This document shows positions 34,698 through 50,615 of a stretch of 64,000 bases of DNA, piece after piece. The DNA is taken from assembly GCF_009914755.1 (NCBI RefSeq), contig NC_060944.1. One strand, given 5' to 3'. Source of the DNA: the human T2T-CHM13v2.0 reference genome, Homo sapiens. The position numbers were made by a program, and so were the translations under genes. The notes beneath the pieces were generated by a model that did not search any database, was not told the origin of the DNA, and saw only the letters and a list, made by a program, of their open reading frames with translations. Each line of letters starts with the position of its first letter. Within the stretch, counting starts at the first letter, position 1.

Positions 34698-34703
34698 TTT
34701 ATT
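34698..34703 (-). terminator. Poly(A) signal of unit C
   Basis: AATAAA on the - strand about 130 nt past the stop. Context (cagggtctttattcag on +) matches units A and B. Confidence 0.6.
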
Positions 34704-34833
34704 CAGGACTAGACTAATCTGTATTTGCTCTTCTCTTTCCATCCAACCCTCAAGAGCCCCCCAGCTCCATTATAGACCTCGGCCTAGGGTCTCCCCTCCC
34801 CACCAGATATTCAGAGCAGGGCTGGCCTTCAGT

Positions 34834-36681
34834 TCAAGTGTAGACTGTGCTCTTGCCCTCACACTCGAGCTTGTGGATGATCTTCCACTCCGGCTTTCTA
34901 AAGTACACTTTCCTTGCCCAGTAGCAGGATTGCCTCTGTGGAGTGTCCCACCAATAATGGTGACAACTGCTGTTTTCATCAGCTCCAGACCCAAAGAGAC
35001 CTGAAGTGGGGAAGTGTGAAGGAAGGAATATGTGTCATCCAGGGGGGACCCAACTTTGCCTAAGGGCATGAGGCCGGAGCCTCCTTTCCTGACCTTGTCA
35101 CATGTGGCAGGGTATAACCAGAATGGTGAATCCAGCAGACGGGAGGAGTCCCTGGCAGTCCAGCCAGTTCTCGTGGATGTACTTGAGGAAGGTGCAATTG
35201 GCCACCAGAACATGCAGGAGTAGAGGTTAGAGCTCAGCCACAGAGATTATCTTCTTGCAGAAAACTTTTTTCCCCCTTCCTAATCTTGTCTGCTTTGATA
35301 GAAGCTGGTACTGGCTGGAAAGGCCTGAAAGCAGGAGGGGACAAGAGTCGTCAGAGGCTGGGCAATGTTCTTGTTTCCGGGGAGTGCTGAGGTCCGGCGG
35401 GTGCTGCCCCTGTTCTCTCAAGGATCCCACGTGCTTTGTGTGTTAGAGCAGTGACCATCACCTCCCAACCCAAGGACCTTTGCTGCTCTGCTTCCCACAT
35501 GGGACTGCCAGCACCCTGAAGGCAGAAAAACTGAATGTACCCGTTAAAGGAGGAGAAGCTGGTGGTGTATGTTGAGATAAGGAGGGTGGGGAGTGTACAG
35601 TTACAGGCTGCACAGGGAGGGCAAGATCAATGTTGACACCAAAGTGCCAAAGGCTGTCTGCGCCAGGTCTGGGGCCCCCACTGGTCATACCGCCTGATAA
35701 AACCATTGCAGTCCACACTAGGTCTGGAGGCTTCGACACCCACAGCATGTGGGTGTTCTCATGCAGGCCATGAGTATTCGGGGTGCTTTAAGTGCAGGGG
35801 AGTTCTGTTGTCCACGTTATTCTTAAAGCCCAGAATAGGCCCTGTTTTATTCTACAGAGATAGGAAGGCACTGGGGCTCACAGAGTGGTGCTGCTTCCCA
35901 CCCTCACCCTTCTGCCCCCACCTGAGCACAGTGTGGTGCTCAGTGATGGTTATCCTATATTCCAAATACGCATGGCCCAGGACTGGCAGAGTCGGAGCTC
36001 GGGGTCTAGCTGTGACCTGGGGATCGGTTGGAGTAGCTTCTTGACCAGCCGGAATTGGGTTAGGTGTCCTAGCATTGGTGCCTATGGAGAAGAACACAGA
36101 CTGTTTATCACTCACCCCTGGTTCCAGTACCAAGGAAAGGCTGGAGCCATTGCAACTGGAGGCCCAGCGGAGGAAGGGATCAAGAAGAGGATGCAGCCCA
36201 GAGCCCAGGACCGAGCATCCACCGGCCTCTGGAGATGGCGTGGTCTCCAGTTGCATCGGGGCTTCAGGGCCCATCTGAAGTGCTGATCAAACCAGGCAGA
36301 CACACCATGCTGGTGAAGGCAGGCTTTGTAGATGCGGGGCTGAATTGAGCAGCCACAGAACCTCTGCAGCTCTGGGGCCAGTGGCAGAACTTCTAGAAGT
36401 ACCTGTGGGGTGGGAAACCCCAGCCACAAAAGCAGTGAGCTGACTTCCAGGCCTGAGGCTTTGCCTGCAGGCCTCATCTCAGCCCATGGGACAGATTCCT
36501 GGTTTTTTTAGTTTGGCCTTGGGGTAGATGATACCTTCAGCTGTCCACCCTGCAATACCTCACCTCCTGCCTTCTGACCCAGTACTCTGCAGAGCGGGGG
36601 AATGGGGCCAGGGGACAGGGGCAGGGAAGAGGAAGAAGCAAGAGCTGCCAGTGTGCTCCAAACCAAGAGAGCCCTCCACAT
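34834..36681 (-). pseudogene. ST3GAL-like unit C: unprocessed sialyltransferase (GT29) pseudogene with all exons, multiple frameshifts
   Basis: Putative TM exon 36564-36681 (MWRALLVWSTLAALA). Stem exon from 36402 (CGC..ACLHQHGVSAWFDQHF). 35922-36081 (LVKKLLQPIP..LCQSWA..ITEHHTVLR). From 35851 (GFKNNVDNRT..HPE..ENTHMLWVSKPPDLVW). About 35476-35521 (FRVLAVPCGKQSSK). 35094-35211 (FLKYIHENWLDCQGLLPSAG..CDK). 34834-35000 (GADENSSCHHYW..PEWKIIHKLECEGKSTVYT*). Confidence 0.85.
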
Positions 36682-37299
36682 GATTCTGGGCACAGCTGAG
36701 GAGGAGTGCAAGCTCAACTCTGCTCACCACACTTAAGAAGCAGGCAAGGGAGGATGAAGGGCAAAAACATGGGGTCCTGAGGCCCTTTTACTCCCTCTAC
36801 CCTGCTGGAGGTGAGGATGAGAGGTGAGACTTCGTTGGACTGTGCTCCTGGCCAGTTGATCTCACCCAACTCATTACATCAGTAGCCTGGTCACAGGGTG
36901 GACACTCTGACCTCTTCTTAGCCTTTCATTGGCAATACTACCAGCTCTATATATGCCCTTATAGGGCCTGAACCTTGGCTCAGGTGGATGGGCTTGGAGG
37001 TAAAATAATTGAATGGGTCAGGGGTAGGAGGAGAGATGAGTCTCTGCCAAGGCTGTGTGATGTGTCATCTGAGAGAGTGGGTAACCCCTATTCCCAGCAC
37101 ATGGCCATTTATTTAGAGCCAGGGAGGGGGACGAGAATTCATATTCAAATGTGATTCTTTCTTAATTACTACCAGTTGTTCAGGTGAGGGAATCAGGGAA
37201 GGCCAGATTAATAATCCACACATTGCCCTTGCACCTCCTGTCTTGGTTTCCTATCAAAACCTCTCCCGTATCTATGAACATTCCAGCCCTGCAGGTCAG

Positions 37300-38282
37300 A
37301 TTGCTGGCCAGGAGTAGTCTCACATTCTAGCTGACTGATGGCCTCGGCTTCTGCTGTTGTATGTGGTTTGATGATTCATGCTGGAGCCTTTGGCTATAAC
37401 TCTCTTCCCTGTATAAGGGCCATCTGAAGTTTGTCTGCCTGACTCCATTACCTGGTGAATGAGATTGGCTAGCTGCTGCTCCTGCCCCAGCTATTCAGTC
37501 ATTTGGCAAATACTCATTTAAACAAAGCTCCACAGGGAGCTCTGAGAAGGAGCTCACCTCTAGGCACACAGAACCTGGACACAGATGAAAGTTTGCAGAA
37601 TGACCCAGTTGTGCAGAAGAGACCCACTGGCTGCTCTCAGTGAGGCCAGGGAGAGTCAAACAGAGCATCTTGGACAAAGAGAGGGCTTGAAGGCCCTTTC
37701 AAAGTGTCAAGCCAGTTGGATGCACGGGTTGTGTGGAGTCCAGGGGTACATCCAGAAGCAATGGCAGGTGTTATCCATTCATTCAGGTTAGACCTCTGAG
37801 CAGACGGCAGAAACGTCAGCCACAGGTGAGCATAAGCTCAAACCCCCCCATTGAAGGCTACATTCTTGTCCCACAGGGCAGAGCACATGGCAAGTGGCAT
37901 GCTGACTCAGACACCGGGCACTGAGAAAAGTGGGAAGCCATGGTCACAGACTCTACATTCCCCTCTCCTGTTGGCCTCCATCCCTTCCTCAACCGTCCGC
38001 AGAACACCTCCTTCCAGCACCTTAGCTCCTGCCTCCCTCTGGACCTATTCAGTCCTCAAGGGTGCCCTGCTAAAGGCTGGGCTGAAAGCTAAGAGGAGAG
38101 GTGGCATTCAATGTGTCCTGTGTCCTCCCTGGGGTTGATTAAGGGGTCGATGCCCAATAGAGTCCTTCATCTTGGCGTTCAGCCCAGGGTCCAGCTGCCA
38201 AGGGAAGGCTTGGCAATCAAGGGTGATGGAGATAAGAATGAAAAGGGGCACCACCCTGTGCCAAAGCTGGCATGTTGTATAT
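37300..38282 (-). pseudogene. ST3GAL-like unit D: internally deleted remnant
   Basis: Stem piece 37683-37770 (CHCF..GCTPGLHTTRASNWLD/HFERAFKP). Last-exon piece from acceptor 37451 (AEAEAISQLECE). Possible frameshifted TM segment near ATG 38273 (VVPLFILISITL). AATAAA at 37108-37113. No L-motif exons found. Confidence 0.65.
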
Positions 38283-38499
38283 CTGAGAGAGGAGCTGCCT
38301 ATTCACAGTGTAGGGTTGTCAAGCTGGAGGCAGGGAGAGAAAAGCAAGAGCTTTTTGGTTCCTCTTGAGGATAGAATCTATAGGAAAATGTAAGAGGGTT
38401 AAAAATAAATTTCCCATGCATCCAAACTTTTTTCTTTGGTAGACTTTCTTGTCATCTATTTAAAATGAAACAAGTGCATGTACGTGGTTAAGACATTTT

Positions 38500-49438: not shown

Positions 49439-49594
49439 CTGGGATAGATGAAGCATTGTGTGTGGTTTGGTTCCCCACGTCCATCTCAAAGCCCTGGACT
49501 TGGGGCCTGCTTCATCTTGGGAAGGGGAGCAGAAACTGATGGAACTGTGGGGCAGGCCTGGCCTTCCTGCTCCCGCCCTCTCCCCAGCACCCAC

Positions 49595-49773
49595 CTGAAA
49601 ACCACGGGGTATTGGTCGATGTCGTTGCCAAGGCTGGAGCCCTGCGGGATCTGTGGGCGCCCCAACAGCACACAAGTCCCACAATAGAAATCAAAATGGC
49701 TCACCGAGAGCCTGGGAATCCCTTTAAACAGCTTCCTCCACAATTTCCCAAGCTCGCTCCCTGAGTTCATGCC
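49595..49773 (-). CDS. C20orf173: C20orf173 exon with degenerate sialylmotif L
   Basis: tccag| GMNSGSELGKLWRKLFKGIP..CGTCVLLGRPQIPQGSSLGNDIDQYPVVFR |gtgggt. 179 nt, phase 0-2. Confidence 0.9.
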
Positions 49774-49958
49774 CTGGAAACAGCAAGAGGGAGATTGGGG
49801 GCTGGGCCCAGGGGAGAGAAAACAGAGCTGGGTGGGTGAGATCTCCATCCAGAGGCTGTGAAGACAGGGCCAAGGGCAGGGATTTGGGCGGAAAGTGGGA
49901 GATGGGTGAGGCCCGGAAAGCATGGGGGATATGGCCGGGCCCAGTGTTGACCACTGAC

Positions 49959-50267
49959 CAACCACCAGAGCACAGTGTCAGAGGTCATAGACTCTCTTGT
50001 CCTCATCAGGTACCCCATAGTCTTCCTGGAGCACGCATCAAGCCAGTTCCATTCGTCGGCTGTGTGGTGGCAGGAGGAGCAGTTGAGGGTCTCAGAAGGG
50101 CAGCCACACTTCCCGGAACTGAACCAAGGGCAGTCGCAATGCTGTGGTACCAAGTACATTCGTTTTTCCTGGGGTGCTGATTCAGGTGTCAGATCCAGAT
50201 AGGGGGTCATCAGCCAGAGGATGAGCACCCAAAAGACCCACAGGACAAAAATCTGCCAGCGCTTCAT
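49959..50267 (-). CDS. C20orf173: C20orf173 first coding exon (TM anchor and Cys-rich stem)
   Basis: ATG 50267 (exon starts at 50318 after an acceptor). MKRWQIFVLWVFWVLILWLM..CDC..CGC..CSSC..WLD..LWWL; donor |gtcagt; 309 nt. Confidence 0.9.
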
Positions 50268-50540
50268 GTCTGGCCCAGGCGGTGGCTCCCGTGGTGGGCC
50301 GTAGACTGGCTTCTCTACCTGTAAGGATGAGGGGCTGAGGCCACAGACAGCACCAGCTTCCCTCTGTCCTGTCGGCCTCCACAACTCCCCATCCCACCAC
50401 CTTCCACCTCCTTCCAACCCCTCCTCTCCTGCCTCACTATCCATTTGCTCACCCTCAAAACGGTCTCTGACTGGGCATGGGGTGGAAGAGGCCAGGGCAG
50501 AGAGACAGCATGTGGCTAGTCCTGAGAGGGGAAGGAATAC

Positions 50541-50615
50541 CTCAGTGGGGGCCTTGCTGTCATCCCAGTTATATCATAGATCTCATCACAAAGTACACAT
50601 TGTGACCTCCCTCCT
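50541..50615 (-). promoter_or_regulatory. C20orf173: Putative C20orf173 promoter / non-coding first exon
   Basis: Donor GAG|gtattc at 50541/50540. The block is conserved with 44495-44565. Confidence 0.5.

What the first reader, a model, noticed from the sequence alone, without database searches (positions are those of the whole stretch)
34698..50615. Tandem array of four ST3GAL-type sialyltransferase gene copies between CEP250 and ERGIC3
Seen: on the - strand the same six-exon design recurs head-to-tail four times: unit A (C20orf173, 47.9-50.6 kb), B (41.8-44.6 kb), D (37.1-38.3 kb) and C (34.7-36.7 kb). The design is TM plus Cys stem (WFD..F), CxxC-AVVGN, MNQAP.GFE.DVG.RTT, a micro-exon ending SKDK, YI..NWL...G.YPS..LH.CD, and V.LFGFG...HYW...E..II..L.CE. 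Splice phases match where exons survive. Knowledge: these are sialylmotifs L, S, III and VS of GT29, closest to remembered ST3GAL1/ST3GAL2 sequences. I recall C20orf173 being linked to an extra vertebrate ST3Gal lineage (ST3Gal VIII) but cannot verify this. Inference: the locus amplified locally and then decayed copy by copy. Units B-D may be unannotated or only partly annotated.
Basis: partly seen in the sequence, partly recalled or inferred. Interest (0 to 1): 0.9.

Follow-up and report, generated by a model that had tools for sequence, protein, structure and literature searches.

The report
Ancient ST3GAL8 gene-copy array, chromosome 20
Four head-to-tail copies of a sialic-acid-adding enzyme gene lie between CEP250 and ERGIC3 on human chromosome 20; none can make a working enzyme in this genome, although the best-kept copy looks intact in many other mammals.

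Summary
Four same-strand (minus) GT29 units lie at about 47.86-50.62 kb (A = C20orf173), 41.72-44.72 kb (B), 37.17-38.35 kb (D) and 34.68-36.4 kb, perhaps to 37.13 kb (C).

- **B** keeps all six exons with AG/GT splice sites. It is dead in this haplotype: a TGA right after MNQAPV, a 1-nt frameshift in an A8 run, and Gln in place of the catalytic His.
- **A** is the conserved, truncated ~200-aa C20orf173. It has no S, III or VS motif in its reading frame.
- **C** is a decayed copy.
- **D** is seen only at DNA level, as a 5' flank and exon-1 start joined to the last intron and exon.

A, B and C fall in one starred mammal-only clade. A-type and B-type each form a starred clade spanning several mammalian orders, so the duplication is ancient, not recent.

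Assignment to ST3Gal VIII rests on similarity ranking and on published synteny. The tree agrees only weakly (support 73/77), and an AU test does not exclude ST3Gal I.

Full-length B-type proteins are predicted in dog, horse, deer, hyena, xenarthrans, mouse lemur and tree shrew. This conflicts with the printed statement that st3gal8 is lost in mammals.

Interest is moderate.

The parts
47863..50620 (-). Unit A = C20orf173, the whole unit: 5' flank, six exon homologues and 3' end
   Evidence: Collinear with unit B by nhmmer and blastn. Family-HMM hits at 50264-49959 (E 2e-20), 49764-49591 (2e-7) and 49502-49339.
49959..50318 (-). A exon 1. CDS starts at 50267. Encodes the TM segment and the Cys-rich stem.
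   Evidence: Hub annotation. Translation. 93% to 57% identical to 'C20orf173 homolog' proteins of other mammals.
49595..49773 (-). A exon 2: degenerate sialylmotif L (CGTCVLLGRP where B has CRVCAVVGNS)
   Evidence: Pfam 20.7 bits, below the gathering score.
49339..49502 (-). A exon 3 homologue (QVQGFEMDVGNQTT...), with a frameshift inside. RefSeq uses only 49345-49438, from an internal acceptor.
   Evidence: Two HMM hits in different frames, 49502-49452 and 49464-49339..
49127..49178 (-). A exon 4 (micro-exon). It is read in a shifted frame, which gives ...ILEDGLVP and a stop at 49152-49154.
   Evidence: 75% identical to the B micro-exon. The same C-terminus is seen in 11 of the 19 aligned A-type orthologue models.
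48935..49053 (-). A exon 5 relic (sialylmotif S; QDNWLSYQG...). It is frameshifted, and the donor GT reads GA.
   Evidence: 68% identical to B exon 5. Not part of any annotated A transcript exon (hub table).
47872..48143 (-). A last exon, untranslated in RefSeq. It holds a relic of motifs III/VS (VTLFGFG..FYHW..EIEVIHQLAC) with an internal stop.
   Evidence: tblastn E 6e-4.. Best per-exon hits are named fish ST3GAL8.
41723..44720 (-). Unit B: an ST3GAL8-type unitary pseudogene, transcribed as alternative C20orf173 transcripts
   Evidence: Five HMM hits, E 8e-34 to 1e-20. Four Pfam hits above the gathering score. Hub table lists exons at 43902-44284, 43566-43753, 43284-43482, 43083-43131, 42864-42983 and 41634-42036. 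All internal borders are AG/GT.
43461..43463 (-). Premature TGA in B exon 3, directly after MNQAPV
   Evidence: Read directly and in the spliced translation. The chimpanzee model P0003 and primate model P0005 have Arg here; other mammals have Gln.
43290..43297 (-). A8 run at the end of B exon 3. One base too many shifts the frame: KQKKPW is read instead of KQKNPG.
   Evidence: Primate model P0004 and the non-primate B-types read KNPG or NPG. The chimpanzee model P0003 shares the shifted reading.
41884..42036 (-). Coding part of B exon 6: motif III (HYWD), and motif VS with Gln at the catalytic-His column. The stop is at 41881-41883.
   Evidence: Alignment A2. HMM E 1e-24.
37704..38350 (-). Unit D, 5' piece: 5' flank plus the first ~20 codons of exon 1 (ATG followed by TAG)
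   Evidence: nhmmer against B, E 5e-30, and against A, E 4e-12. Alignments. A profile of the A, B and D 5' regions finds exactly these three places in the window at E < 1e-130.
37165..37690 (-). Unit D, 3' piece: last intron, last exon relic (..AEAEAISQLECE..) and 3' end. Exons 1 (rest) to 5 are missing.
   Evidence: nhmmer against A, E 2e-11, and against B, E 2e-7. 59% and 55% identity. No protein-level hit.
34677..36408 (-). Unit C: decayed copy with relics of exon 1 (36194-36408), exon 3 (35681-35867), exon 5 (35089-35226) and exon 6 (34830-35004; stop at 34834-36)
   Evidence: HMM hits at 36372-36256 (E 4e-6), 35214-35104 (8e-9) and 34998-34837 (4e-9). nhmmer against B and A. Alignments.
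36535..37129 (-). Possible remnant of C's own 5' flank (weak evidence)
   Evidence: The A+B+D 5' profile hits 37129-36859 (E 0.0017) and 36573-36535 (E 0.02). These come from a search limited to 36404-37178, and the two hits are collinear. Window-wide the E-values are 0.14 and 1.7.

Best explanation
This is what remains of the mammalian ST3GAL8 locus. ST3GAL8 is the third member of the ST3Gal I/II/VIII group of alpha-2,3-sialyltransferases.

History. An ancestral six-exon gene of about 3 kb was duplicated in tandem. It gave at least four head-to-tail units before the placental orders split. The units then took different paths.

- Unit B is the enzyme-type copy. It is predicted full-length, with all four sialylmotifs, in carnivores, ungulates, xenarthrans, mouse lemur and tree shrew. 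In this human haplotype it is a transcribed unitary pseudogene. It has a stop codon after MNQAPV, a +1 frameshift in an A8 run (shared with the chimpanzee model), Glu at a near-invariant Gly of motif S, and Gln at the catalytic His of motif VS.
- Unit A is C20orf173. Its reading frame ends in the micro-exon. It encodes a ~200-aa type II membrane protein with a TM segment, a Cys-rich stem, a degenerate motif L, and no S, III or VS motif. It therefore cannot transfer sialic acid. If it acts at all, it acts non-catalytically. Published expression data place it in testis.
- Units C and D are old dead copies. They lie antisense inside the long CEP250 3'UTR exon.

Shown: the four units, their lesions, and the A-type and B-type clades.

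Inferred: the ST3Gal VIII origin, the date of duplication, enzymatic activity of B-type in other mammals, and any function of A.
For: Units and their statistics.

Lesions of B. P0003 (chimpanzee) has Arg at the human TGA and shares the same frameshift. P0004 reads KQKNPG.

Full-length B-type proteins of 317-356 aa, 57-65% identical to human B, come from Microcebus, Tamandua, Tupaia, Equus, Hyaena, Canis, Odocoileus and Dasypus.

Catalytic His column (alignment A2):
- His is present in ST3Gal I (P0161), two fish ST3GAL8 and P0172.
- His is present in 7 of 7 B-types outside the human, Microcebus, Tupaia and P0017 group.
- His is replaced in those 4.
- The role of this His is stated in PMC10225777 (passage).

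A-type:
- 36 proteins at E <= 0.001 among 39 candidates, mostly named 'C20orf173 homolog'. They come from primates, colugo, tree shrew, bats, carnivores, beaver, pig, peccary and whale.
- 11 of the 19 aligned orthologue models end at the same position as human, with ILEDGLVP-like tails.
- The TM region has 80% mean pairwise identity, against 55% in B-type (7 species each, 21 pairs).

Tree of 45 rows: mammal clade 99/100*, A-type 100/99*, B-type 99/100*.

Tupaia has both A-type and B-type on contigs of the same length, and Microcebus has both types. Fusion models P0025, P0028, P0031 and P0090 read an A part followed by a B part.

ST3Gal VIII:
- After the mammalian rows, most named hits to human B are fish proteins called ST3GAL8, at 36-41% identity.
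- Per-exon scores for the last exons of A, B and C are 40.0, 42.4 and 37.4 bits to named ST3GAL8. They are 25.8, 31.2 and 29.6 bits to the ST3Gal I clade.
- The best tree joins mammals with named fish ST3GAL8.
- PMC4379398 predicts the lost st3gal8 beside CPNE1 on Hsa20 (passages). The hub table puts CPNE1 about 100 kb beyond unit A.
- PMC5000683 names ST3GAL8P on chromosome 20 (passage).
Against: - The join with fish ST3GAL8 has weak support (73/77). Forcing the mammal clade to ST3Gal I costs only 12.25 lnL, AU p 0.187, so it is not rejected.
- The mammal clade sits on a long stem (0.7).
- All non-human evidence comes from predicted gene models. Such models favour open frames and may copy the human C20orf173 structure. 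No mammalian genome DNA could be searched, so no dN/dS was computed and no unit counts are known in other species.
- C20orf173 is listed as 'transcript level only' (PMC10298883, passage) and once as a lncRNA (PMC4750114, table passage).
- The stop and the frameshift were read in one haplotype (T2T-CHM13). Either could be polymorphic.
- D has no protein-level signal, and identities of 55-59% are close to saturation.
- The evidence that C has its own 5' flank is weak.
Confidence: 0.8

Rival explanations
1. A recent, lineage-restricted local amplification of a sialyltransferase gene was followed by decay of one copy after another. All four units, including C20orf173, would then be plain pseudogenes.
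For: - All four human units carry disabling changes relative to the enzyme frame.
- C20orf173 lacks protein-level evidence in one survey (PMC10298883, passage).
Against: - A-type and B-type each form a starred clade with members of several mammalian orders.
- K2P distances between units are 0.58-1.37.
- A and B carry Alu-like insertions at different sites of the same intron.
- A-type ORFs end at the same place across orders.
- B-type is full-length in many species.
Confidence: 0.07
2. There were only three full units. On this view C and D are one unit whose exon 1 was split by a ~1.4 kb insert, and that insert carries an extra copy of the last intron and exon.
For: - D's 5' piece stops at about B coordinate 44153, and C's exon-1 relic starts at about B coordinate 44097, so the two are nearly complementary.
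- No significant 5' flank of C was found window-wide.
Against: - A search limited to 36404-37178 finds two weak but collinear matches to the 5'-flank profile, at E 0.0017 and E 0.02. They lie directly downstream of D's 3' end, as expected for an abutting fourth unit.
- Either way there are four copies of the last exon.
Confidence: 0.25
3. The array is a mammal-specific offshoot of ST3GAL1 or ST3GAL2 that moved to chromosome 20. It would not be the descendant of vertebrate ST3GAL8.
For: - The AU test does not reject a clade with ST3Gal I (p 0.187).
- Automatic names of many mammalian models read 'sialyltransferase 1-like' or '2-like'.
Against: - The best tree and the similarity ranks favour named ST3GAL8.
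- The location matches the region predicted for the lost st3gal8 (PMC4379398, passages; hub table for CPNE1).
- The units have introns at conserved sites, so they are not retrocopies.
Confidence: 0.1
4. C20orf173 (unit A) makes no functional protein. Its conserved-looking ORF would be a by-product of annotation transfer, and the transcripts would be non-coding or noise from a germ-cell promoter.
For: - 'Transcript level only' (PMC10298883, passage).
- Listed as C20orf173_lncRNA (PMC4750114, table passage).
- The C-terminal tail is the ancestral micro-exon read out of frame.
- The stem and L-like exons are only 53-58% identical between orders.
Against: - The N-terminal TM region has 80% mean pairwise identity across 7 species. 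The intact B-type has 55%.
- No stop is seen in about 200 codons in the 19 aligned models.
- Branch lengths in the A clade are no longer than in the B clade.
- An aptamer assay reports a C20orf173 signal in plasma (PMC12228189, passages). Aptamer specificity is not shown there.
Confidence: 0.35

Closest known systems
Vertebrate ST3Gal VIII (st3gal8) of fish, amphibians and sauropsids, as defined by Petit et al. 2015 (PMC4379398)
   Same: - GT29 fold family with motifs L, S, III and VS.
- Member of the GR1 group together with ST3Gal I and II.
- Among non-mammalian rows that carry a name, most of the top hits to unit B are fish ST3GAL8, at 36-41% identity.
- The chromosomal neighbourhood is the one predicted in print (CPNE1 side of Hsa20).
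   Different: - The mammalian clade sits on a long stem (0.7).
- It has an extra Cys-rich stem segment.
- It reads PSLG where others read PSTG in motif S.
- B-type has a 5-residue deletion before the VS His.
- It is tandemly multiplied.
- The human copies are broken.
ST3GAL8P on human chromosome 20 (ENSG00000242507), named in PMC5000683
   Same: A pseudogene remnant of st3gal8 on Hsa20. It is almost certainly one of these units.
   Different: The paper (passage seen) gives no coordinates, copy number or lesions. I could not find out which unit the identifier covers. The four-unit array, the link to C20orf173 and the intact orthologues in other mammals are not in the passages read.
Porcine ST3Gal I (PDB 2WNB, 2WML, 2WNF)
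   Same: Closest solved structure. Dog B-type aligns over residues 56-303 at 157.8 bits. The Cys pair, motif L, motif S and HYW are aligned.
   Different: A different subfamily. P0161, the ST3Gal I representative (619 bits to 2WNB), falls outside the mammal clade.
C20orf173 protein as annotated (NM_001145350.2) and its 'C20orf173 homolog' models
   Same: Unit A is this gene. Its GT29 ancestry is already implied by Pfam tags on the orthologues and by its inclusion in sialylation gene sets.
   Different: In the papers found it is treated as uncharacterised, or listed among sialyltransferases. Here it is shown to lack motifs S, III and VS in frame, and to be the truncated paralogue of an adjacent enzyme-type copy.

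Membership tests
GT29 sialyltransferase (Pfam PF00777) | Significant match to the family profile | tested here: met
   - B: 4 exon ORFs score 29.4-38.7 bits, above the gathering score of 23.
- A: 20.7 and 15.7 bits.
- C: 17.3 bits. Both A and C are below gathering on single exons, but they are significant against my family HMM (A 2e-20 to 2e-4; C 4e-6 to 4e-9).
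- D: no protein-level match. Its membership rests on DNA homology to A and B only.
GT29 sialyltransferase (active enzyme) | Sialylmotif L (C..C-AVVGNS ... RMN.AP) | tested here: inconclusive
   - B: present, but a TGA follows MNQAPV.
- A: degenerate, CGTCVLLGRP.
- C: the exon 2 region aligns at 53%, which is not significant.
- D: deleted.
GT29 sialyltransferase (active enzyme) | Sialylmotif S (PS.G ... C-D.V..FG.G), in frame | tested here: not met
   - B: the motif is present but lies behind the stop and the frameshift, and it has Glu at the near-invariant Gly (PSLEF against PSLGF).
- A: a frameshifted relic outside the ORF.
- C: relic.
- D: deleted.
GT29 sialyltransferase (active enzyme) | Motif III (HYW) and motif VS with the catalytic His (role of the His: PMC10225777, passage) | tested here: not met
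   Alignment A2.
- Human B has HYWD but Gln at the His column.
- The last exon of A has FYHW and no aligned His, and it is untranslated.
- C has HHYW and no aligned His.
- His is kept in 7 of 7 B-types of horse, deer, dog, hyena, Tamandua, Dasypus and P0020.
ST3Gal VIII subfamily | Closer to named ST3GAL8 than to ST3Gal I/II by similarity | tested here: met
   - after the mammalian rows, most named rows are fish proteins called ST3GAL8.
- the last exons of A, B and C score 40.0, 42.4 and 37.4 bits to named ST3GAL8, against 25.8, 31.2 and 29.6 bits to the ST3Gal I clade.
- The local set is rich in fish ST3GAL8, which favours this result.
ST3Gal VIII subfamily | Monophyly with ST3GAL8 in a tree with ST3Gal I/II present | tested here: inconclusive
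   - The best tree joins them at 73/77.
- The alternative with ST3Gal I is not rejected: delta lnL 12.25, AU p 0.187.
- ST3Gal II could not be labelled, because no name or solved structure was available.
ST3Gal VIII subfamily | Conserved synteny with the st3gal8 neighbourhood | not testable with these tools
   No vertebrate genomes are held. The support is indirect. PMC4379398 (passages) used CPNE1 to place the missing st3gal8 on Hsa20. The hub table puts CPNE1 at window coordinates 147020-185875.

The most novel reading that the evidence does not exclude
ST3Gal VIII was not lost in mammals. On this reading it was tandemly multiplied in a mammalian ancestor, and the enzyme-type copy (B) is still an intact, probably active sialyltransferase in Laurasiatheria and Xenarthra. 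It lost its catalytic His in the human, lemur and tree-shrew group, and was only later broken in apes and humans. A sister copy, C20orf173, was remodelled into a conserved ~200-aa membrane protein with no catalytic half. That would make it a GT29-derived non-enzyme of male germ cells.
Probability: 0.45. Interest if true: 0.6.

Novelty: new member of a known kind. Interest (0 to 1): 0.45.

Why it matters
Reviews of sialyltransferase evolution state that st3gal8 is absent or lost in mammals (PMC4379398, PMC5000683 and PMC10225777, passages). Three results here bear on that statement.

- **The locus is multi-copy.** The human locus holds a four-copy fossil-and-survivor array, not a single trace.
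- **Full-length relatives exist in other mammals.** If they are active, the mammalian alpha-2,3-sialyltransferase set differs between species such as dog or horse and human. That matters for glycan comparisons between model animals and people.
- **C20orf173 is not an enzyme gene.** C20orf173 is placed in 'sialylation' gene signatures as if it were an enzyme. Its reading frame lacks three of the four sialylmotifs, so those signatures count a non-enzyme.

The case also offers a dated example of stepwise gene death. The catalytic residue went first, a frameshift shared with the chimpanzee model came next, and a stop not seen in the chimpanzee model came last.

Tried and rejected
- **Protein-level searches for unit D found nothing.** I tried Pfam on 4 ORFs, tblastn with 4 mammalian proteins at E < 1, family HMMs at E <= 10, and blastp of the last-exon peptide, which gave 0 hits. 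D stands on DNA evidence only.
- **blastn with word size 9 missed part of D.** It found only the 5' match of D and missed its last exon. nhmmer was needed.
- **The repeat finder was of limited use.** It returned mainly Alu-like families, which I recognised by eye from a recalled consensus. Only four small families (D15-D18) reflected the units.
- **Labelling of tree clades was incomplete.** The search of solved structures identified ST3Gal I (P0161). It could not tell ST3Gal II from other groups. The protein-atlas search gave only a generic name and 'Chordata'.
- **The AU test did not settle the subfamily.**
- **Steps considered and not run.**
  - Structure prediction of A-type. The absence of motifs S, III and VS already decides the catalytic question.
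  - Complex prediction for A with B. I make no binding claim.
- **Rows left out before the careful tree.**
  - Of the 147 new representatives, I kept 35, chosen by length 290-450 aa and at least 240 HMM positions covered.
  - I then dropped 13 for long branches or odd composition: P0301, P0262, P0289, P0293, P0205, P0253, P0265, P0255, P0269, P0195, P0202, P0176 and P0162.

Full report
**What is in the sequence**

Pfam. 7 of 16 submitted ORF translations hit PF00777.
- Unit B: four exon ORFs scored 38.7, 35.3, 32.6 and 29.4 bits. Each is above the gathering score of 23.
- Unit A: two ORFs, at 20.7 and 15.7 bits.
- Unit C: one ORF, at 17.3 bits.
- Unit D: none of four.

Family HMM as a window-wide control. 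I built an HMM from 11 mammalian and 8 other relatives and ran it over all 3117 ORFs of 12 aa or more, on both strands.
- The 12 hits with E < 1e-3 all lie on the minus strand between 34837 and 50264. Four are in A, five in B and three in C.
- Every other hit in the 64 kb had E >= 0.14.

tblastn with four mammalian proteins gave the same picture.

**DNA level and unit D**

nhmmer with pieces of each unit gave these results.
- A and B are collinear from the 5' flank to the 3' end, introns included (E 1e-25 to 1e-52 per segment).
- C matches B and A at exon 1, exon 3, exon 5 and exon 6.
- D consists of two blocks.
  - Block 37704-38350 matches the 5' flank and the first codons of exon 1. Against B 44173-44720 the E-value is 5e-30. 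Against A it is 4e-12.
  - Block 37165-37690 matches the last intron, last exon and 3' end. Against A 47863-48347 the E-value is 2e-11. Against B it is 2e-7.
  - Everything between is missing from D.
- All matches are plus-to-plus, so the units lie head to tail.

A profile of the three 5' regions finds exactly A, B and D in the window at E < 1e-130.

Whether C has its own 5' flank is uncertain. A search limited to 36404-37178 gives two weak, collinear matches (E 0.0017 and 0.02). Window-wide these are not significant (0.14 and 1.7). An alternative therefore cannot be excluded. In it, C and D are one unit split by an insert that carries a second last exon.

The spacers A-B and B-D are filled largely with Alu-like repeats (recognised from a recalled consensus). 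A and B also carry such inserts at different sites of the same intron.

**Unit B**

Splicing the six exons that RefSeq lists as alternative C20orf173 transcripts gives AG/GT at every internal border. The reading frame runs from MIRYRS... through motifs L, S, III and VS.

It carries two frame lesions.
- A TGA at 43461-43463, directly after MNQAPV.
- An A8 run at 43290-43297 that shifts the frame (KQKKPW where KQKNPG is expected). Both were read directly.

Primate comparisons:
- The chimpanzee model P0003 has Arg at the stop position but shares the shifted reading.
- Primate model P0004 reads KQKNPG.

Two further changes hit conserved positions.
- Glu replaces the near-invariant Gly of PS.G in motif S.
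- Gln sits at the column of the catalytic His of motif VS (alignment A2). The role of that His is stated in PMC10225777 (passage).

That His is present in the ST3Gal I representative, in two fish ST3GAL8 and in P0172. It is also present in 7 of 7 B-type proteins of horse, deer, dog, hyena, Tamandua, Dasypus and P0020. It is replaced in all four of human (Q), Microcebus (Q, with His one residue later), Tupaia (E) and P0017 (R).

**Relatives of B**

A search with the human model P0002 found 248 proteins at E <= 1e-10 among 1225 candidates, of which 120 were listed.
- After the primate fragments come full-length proteins of 317-356 aa, 57-65% identical. They are from Microcebus, Tamandua, Tupaia, Equus, Hyaena, Canis (a cluster of 16 member sequences), Odocoileus and Dasypus.
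- In the alignment they keep all four sialylmotifs.
- The next rows are fish proteins at 36-41% identity, and most are named ST3GAL8.

These are predicted gene models. I could not inspect the genomes behind them.

**Unit A = C20orf173**

The annotated CDS gives 202 aa: a TM segment, a Cys-rich stem, a degenerate motif L (CGTCVLLGRP), part of exon 3, and an eight-residue tail ILEDGLVP. The tail is the ancestral micro-exon read in another frame.

Exon 5 and the coding part of exon 6 survive only as broken relics outside the ORF.

A search with exon 1 found 36 proteins at E <= 0.001 among 39 candidates. Most are named 'C20orf173 homolog'. They come from primates, colugo, tree shrew, bats, carnivores, beaver, pig, peccary and a whale.

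In my alignment of 19 of them, 11 end at the same position with a tail like the human one.

Conservation across 7 species, 21 pairs each:

| Region | A-type mean pairwise identity | B-type mean pairwise identity |
|---|---|---|
| N-terminal TM region | 80% | 55% |
| Stem (rest of exon 1) | 58% | 56% |
| Exon 2 | 53% | 58% |

This fits a truncated protein kept by selection, but it does not prove it. No orthologous DNA was available for a dN/dS test. One survey lists C20orf173 as seen at transcript level only (PMC10298883, passage). Published transcript data tie it to spermatogenesis (PMC8850557, passages). An aptamer study reports a plasma signal (PMC12228189, passages).

**Age and order of the duplications**

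A careful IQ-TREE of 45 rows puts human A, B and C with all mammalian A-type and B-type proteins in one clade, at 99/100*.
- Inside it, A-type (7 rows, 100/99*) and B-type (11 rows, 99/100*) are separate clades. Each holds several orders.
- Human C sits unresolved at the base, on a long branch.

Further observations point the same way.
- Tupaia and Microcebus each have both types.
- Four gene models (P0025, P0028, P0031, P0090) read an A part followed by a B part. That is the order seen in human.
- K2P distances between the human units are large: 0.58-0.73 for A-B, 0.62-0.86 for D with A or B, 0.92-0.97 for C with A or B, and 1.37 for C-D.
- The last exons of A and C keep the fish-like length before the VS motif. 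All B-types share a 5-residue deletion there.

The multiplication therefore happened before the placental orders diverged. I take C and D to be at least as old as the A/B split. This is an inference from distances that are close to saturation.

**Which subfamily**

P0161 is ST3Gal I (619 bits to the pig structure 2WNB), and it falls outside the mammal clade.
- The best tree joins the mammal clade to the named fish ST3GAL8, but with weak support (73/77).
- Forcing the mammal clade to ST3Gal I lowers the log-likelihood by 12.25, with AU p 0.187. This is not rejected.
- Per-exon similarity favours ST3GAL8, though my local set is rich in fish ST3GAL8.
- The strongest outside support is synteny in print. 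Petit et al. could not find st3gal8 in mammals and placed the missing gene on Hsa20 by its neighbour CPNE1 (PMC4379398, passages). The hub table places CPNE1 about 100 kb beyond unit A.
- Harduin-Lepers and co-workers later named ST3GAL8P on chromosome 20 (PMC5000683, passage).

I rate the ST3Gal VIII origin at about 0.8.

**What is known and what is not**

Four full-text searches bear on this: C20orf173; ST3Gal VIII or st3gal8; ST3GAL8P or ENSG00000242507; C20orf173 together with sialyltransferase.
- No paper found links C20orf173 to ST3Gal VIII, describes a multi-copy array, or reports intact mammalian orthologues.
- The only joint mentions are two gene-set lists.
- Three papers state that st3gal8 is absent or lost in mammals (passages).
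- Supplementary figure S2 of PMC4379398 (synteny) was not opened, and it may bear on the synteny claim.

Databases already hold the predicted proteins under 'sialyltransferase 1-like' or '2-like' and 'C20orf173 homolog' names. The raw material is therefore public, and the new part is the interpretation.

**Verdict**

The finding is real and the family assignment is right. The history is older and more structured than 'amplified then decayed'.

In this genome the array yields no sialyltransferase. It yields one conserved truncated ORF (A), one recently broken enzyme gene (B) and two fossils (C and D).

Noticed in passing
window 35950-36081 (-): The C-terminal 43 residues of primate model P0005 (APMLGHLIQFQL...) match this ORF, which lies inside unit C in the region that aligns with B's exon 2. 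In that species a transcript model therefore joins B's exon 5 to a cryptic exon in unit C, a read-through across units.
   Followed up: partly
window 32258-40174 (+) against 34677-38350 (-): Units C and D lie wholly inside the 7.9 kb last exon (3'UTR) of CEP250, on the opposite strand. The hub table also lists alternative CEP250 exons starting at 34922 and 37877, which are inside C and D.
   Followed up: no
window 42497-42800 and 48509-48849: A and B each carry an Alu-like insert in the intron before the last exon, but at different sites. The A insert interrupts sequence that is continuous in B (42438-42474 matches 48848-48884). The B insert has no counterpart in A.
   Followed up: partly
proteins P0025, P0028, P0031, P0090: Gene models from other mammals fuse an A-type N-terminal part to a B-type C-terminal part. 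Each gives two or more separate matches to the family HMM. They look like read-through or merged predictions, and they show A upstream of B outside human.
   Followed up: partly
alignment A2, columns about 365-372: All 11 B-type sequences, human included, share a 5-residue deletion between motif III and the VS His. Fish ST3GAL8, ST3Gal I and the last-exon relics of units A and C do not have it. They also read SHYW where the others read HHYW, and PSLG where the others read PSTG.
   Followed up: partly
lists: No mouse or rat protein appears among the listed A-type or B-type hits. Beaver has an A-type, and P0017 and P0018 are of a species I could not read. The lists are clustered and cut, so this is only a lead that the locus may differ in murid rodents.
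   Followed up: no
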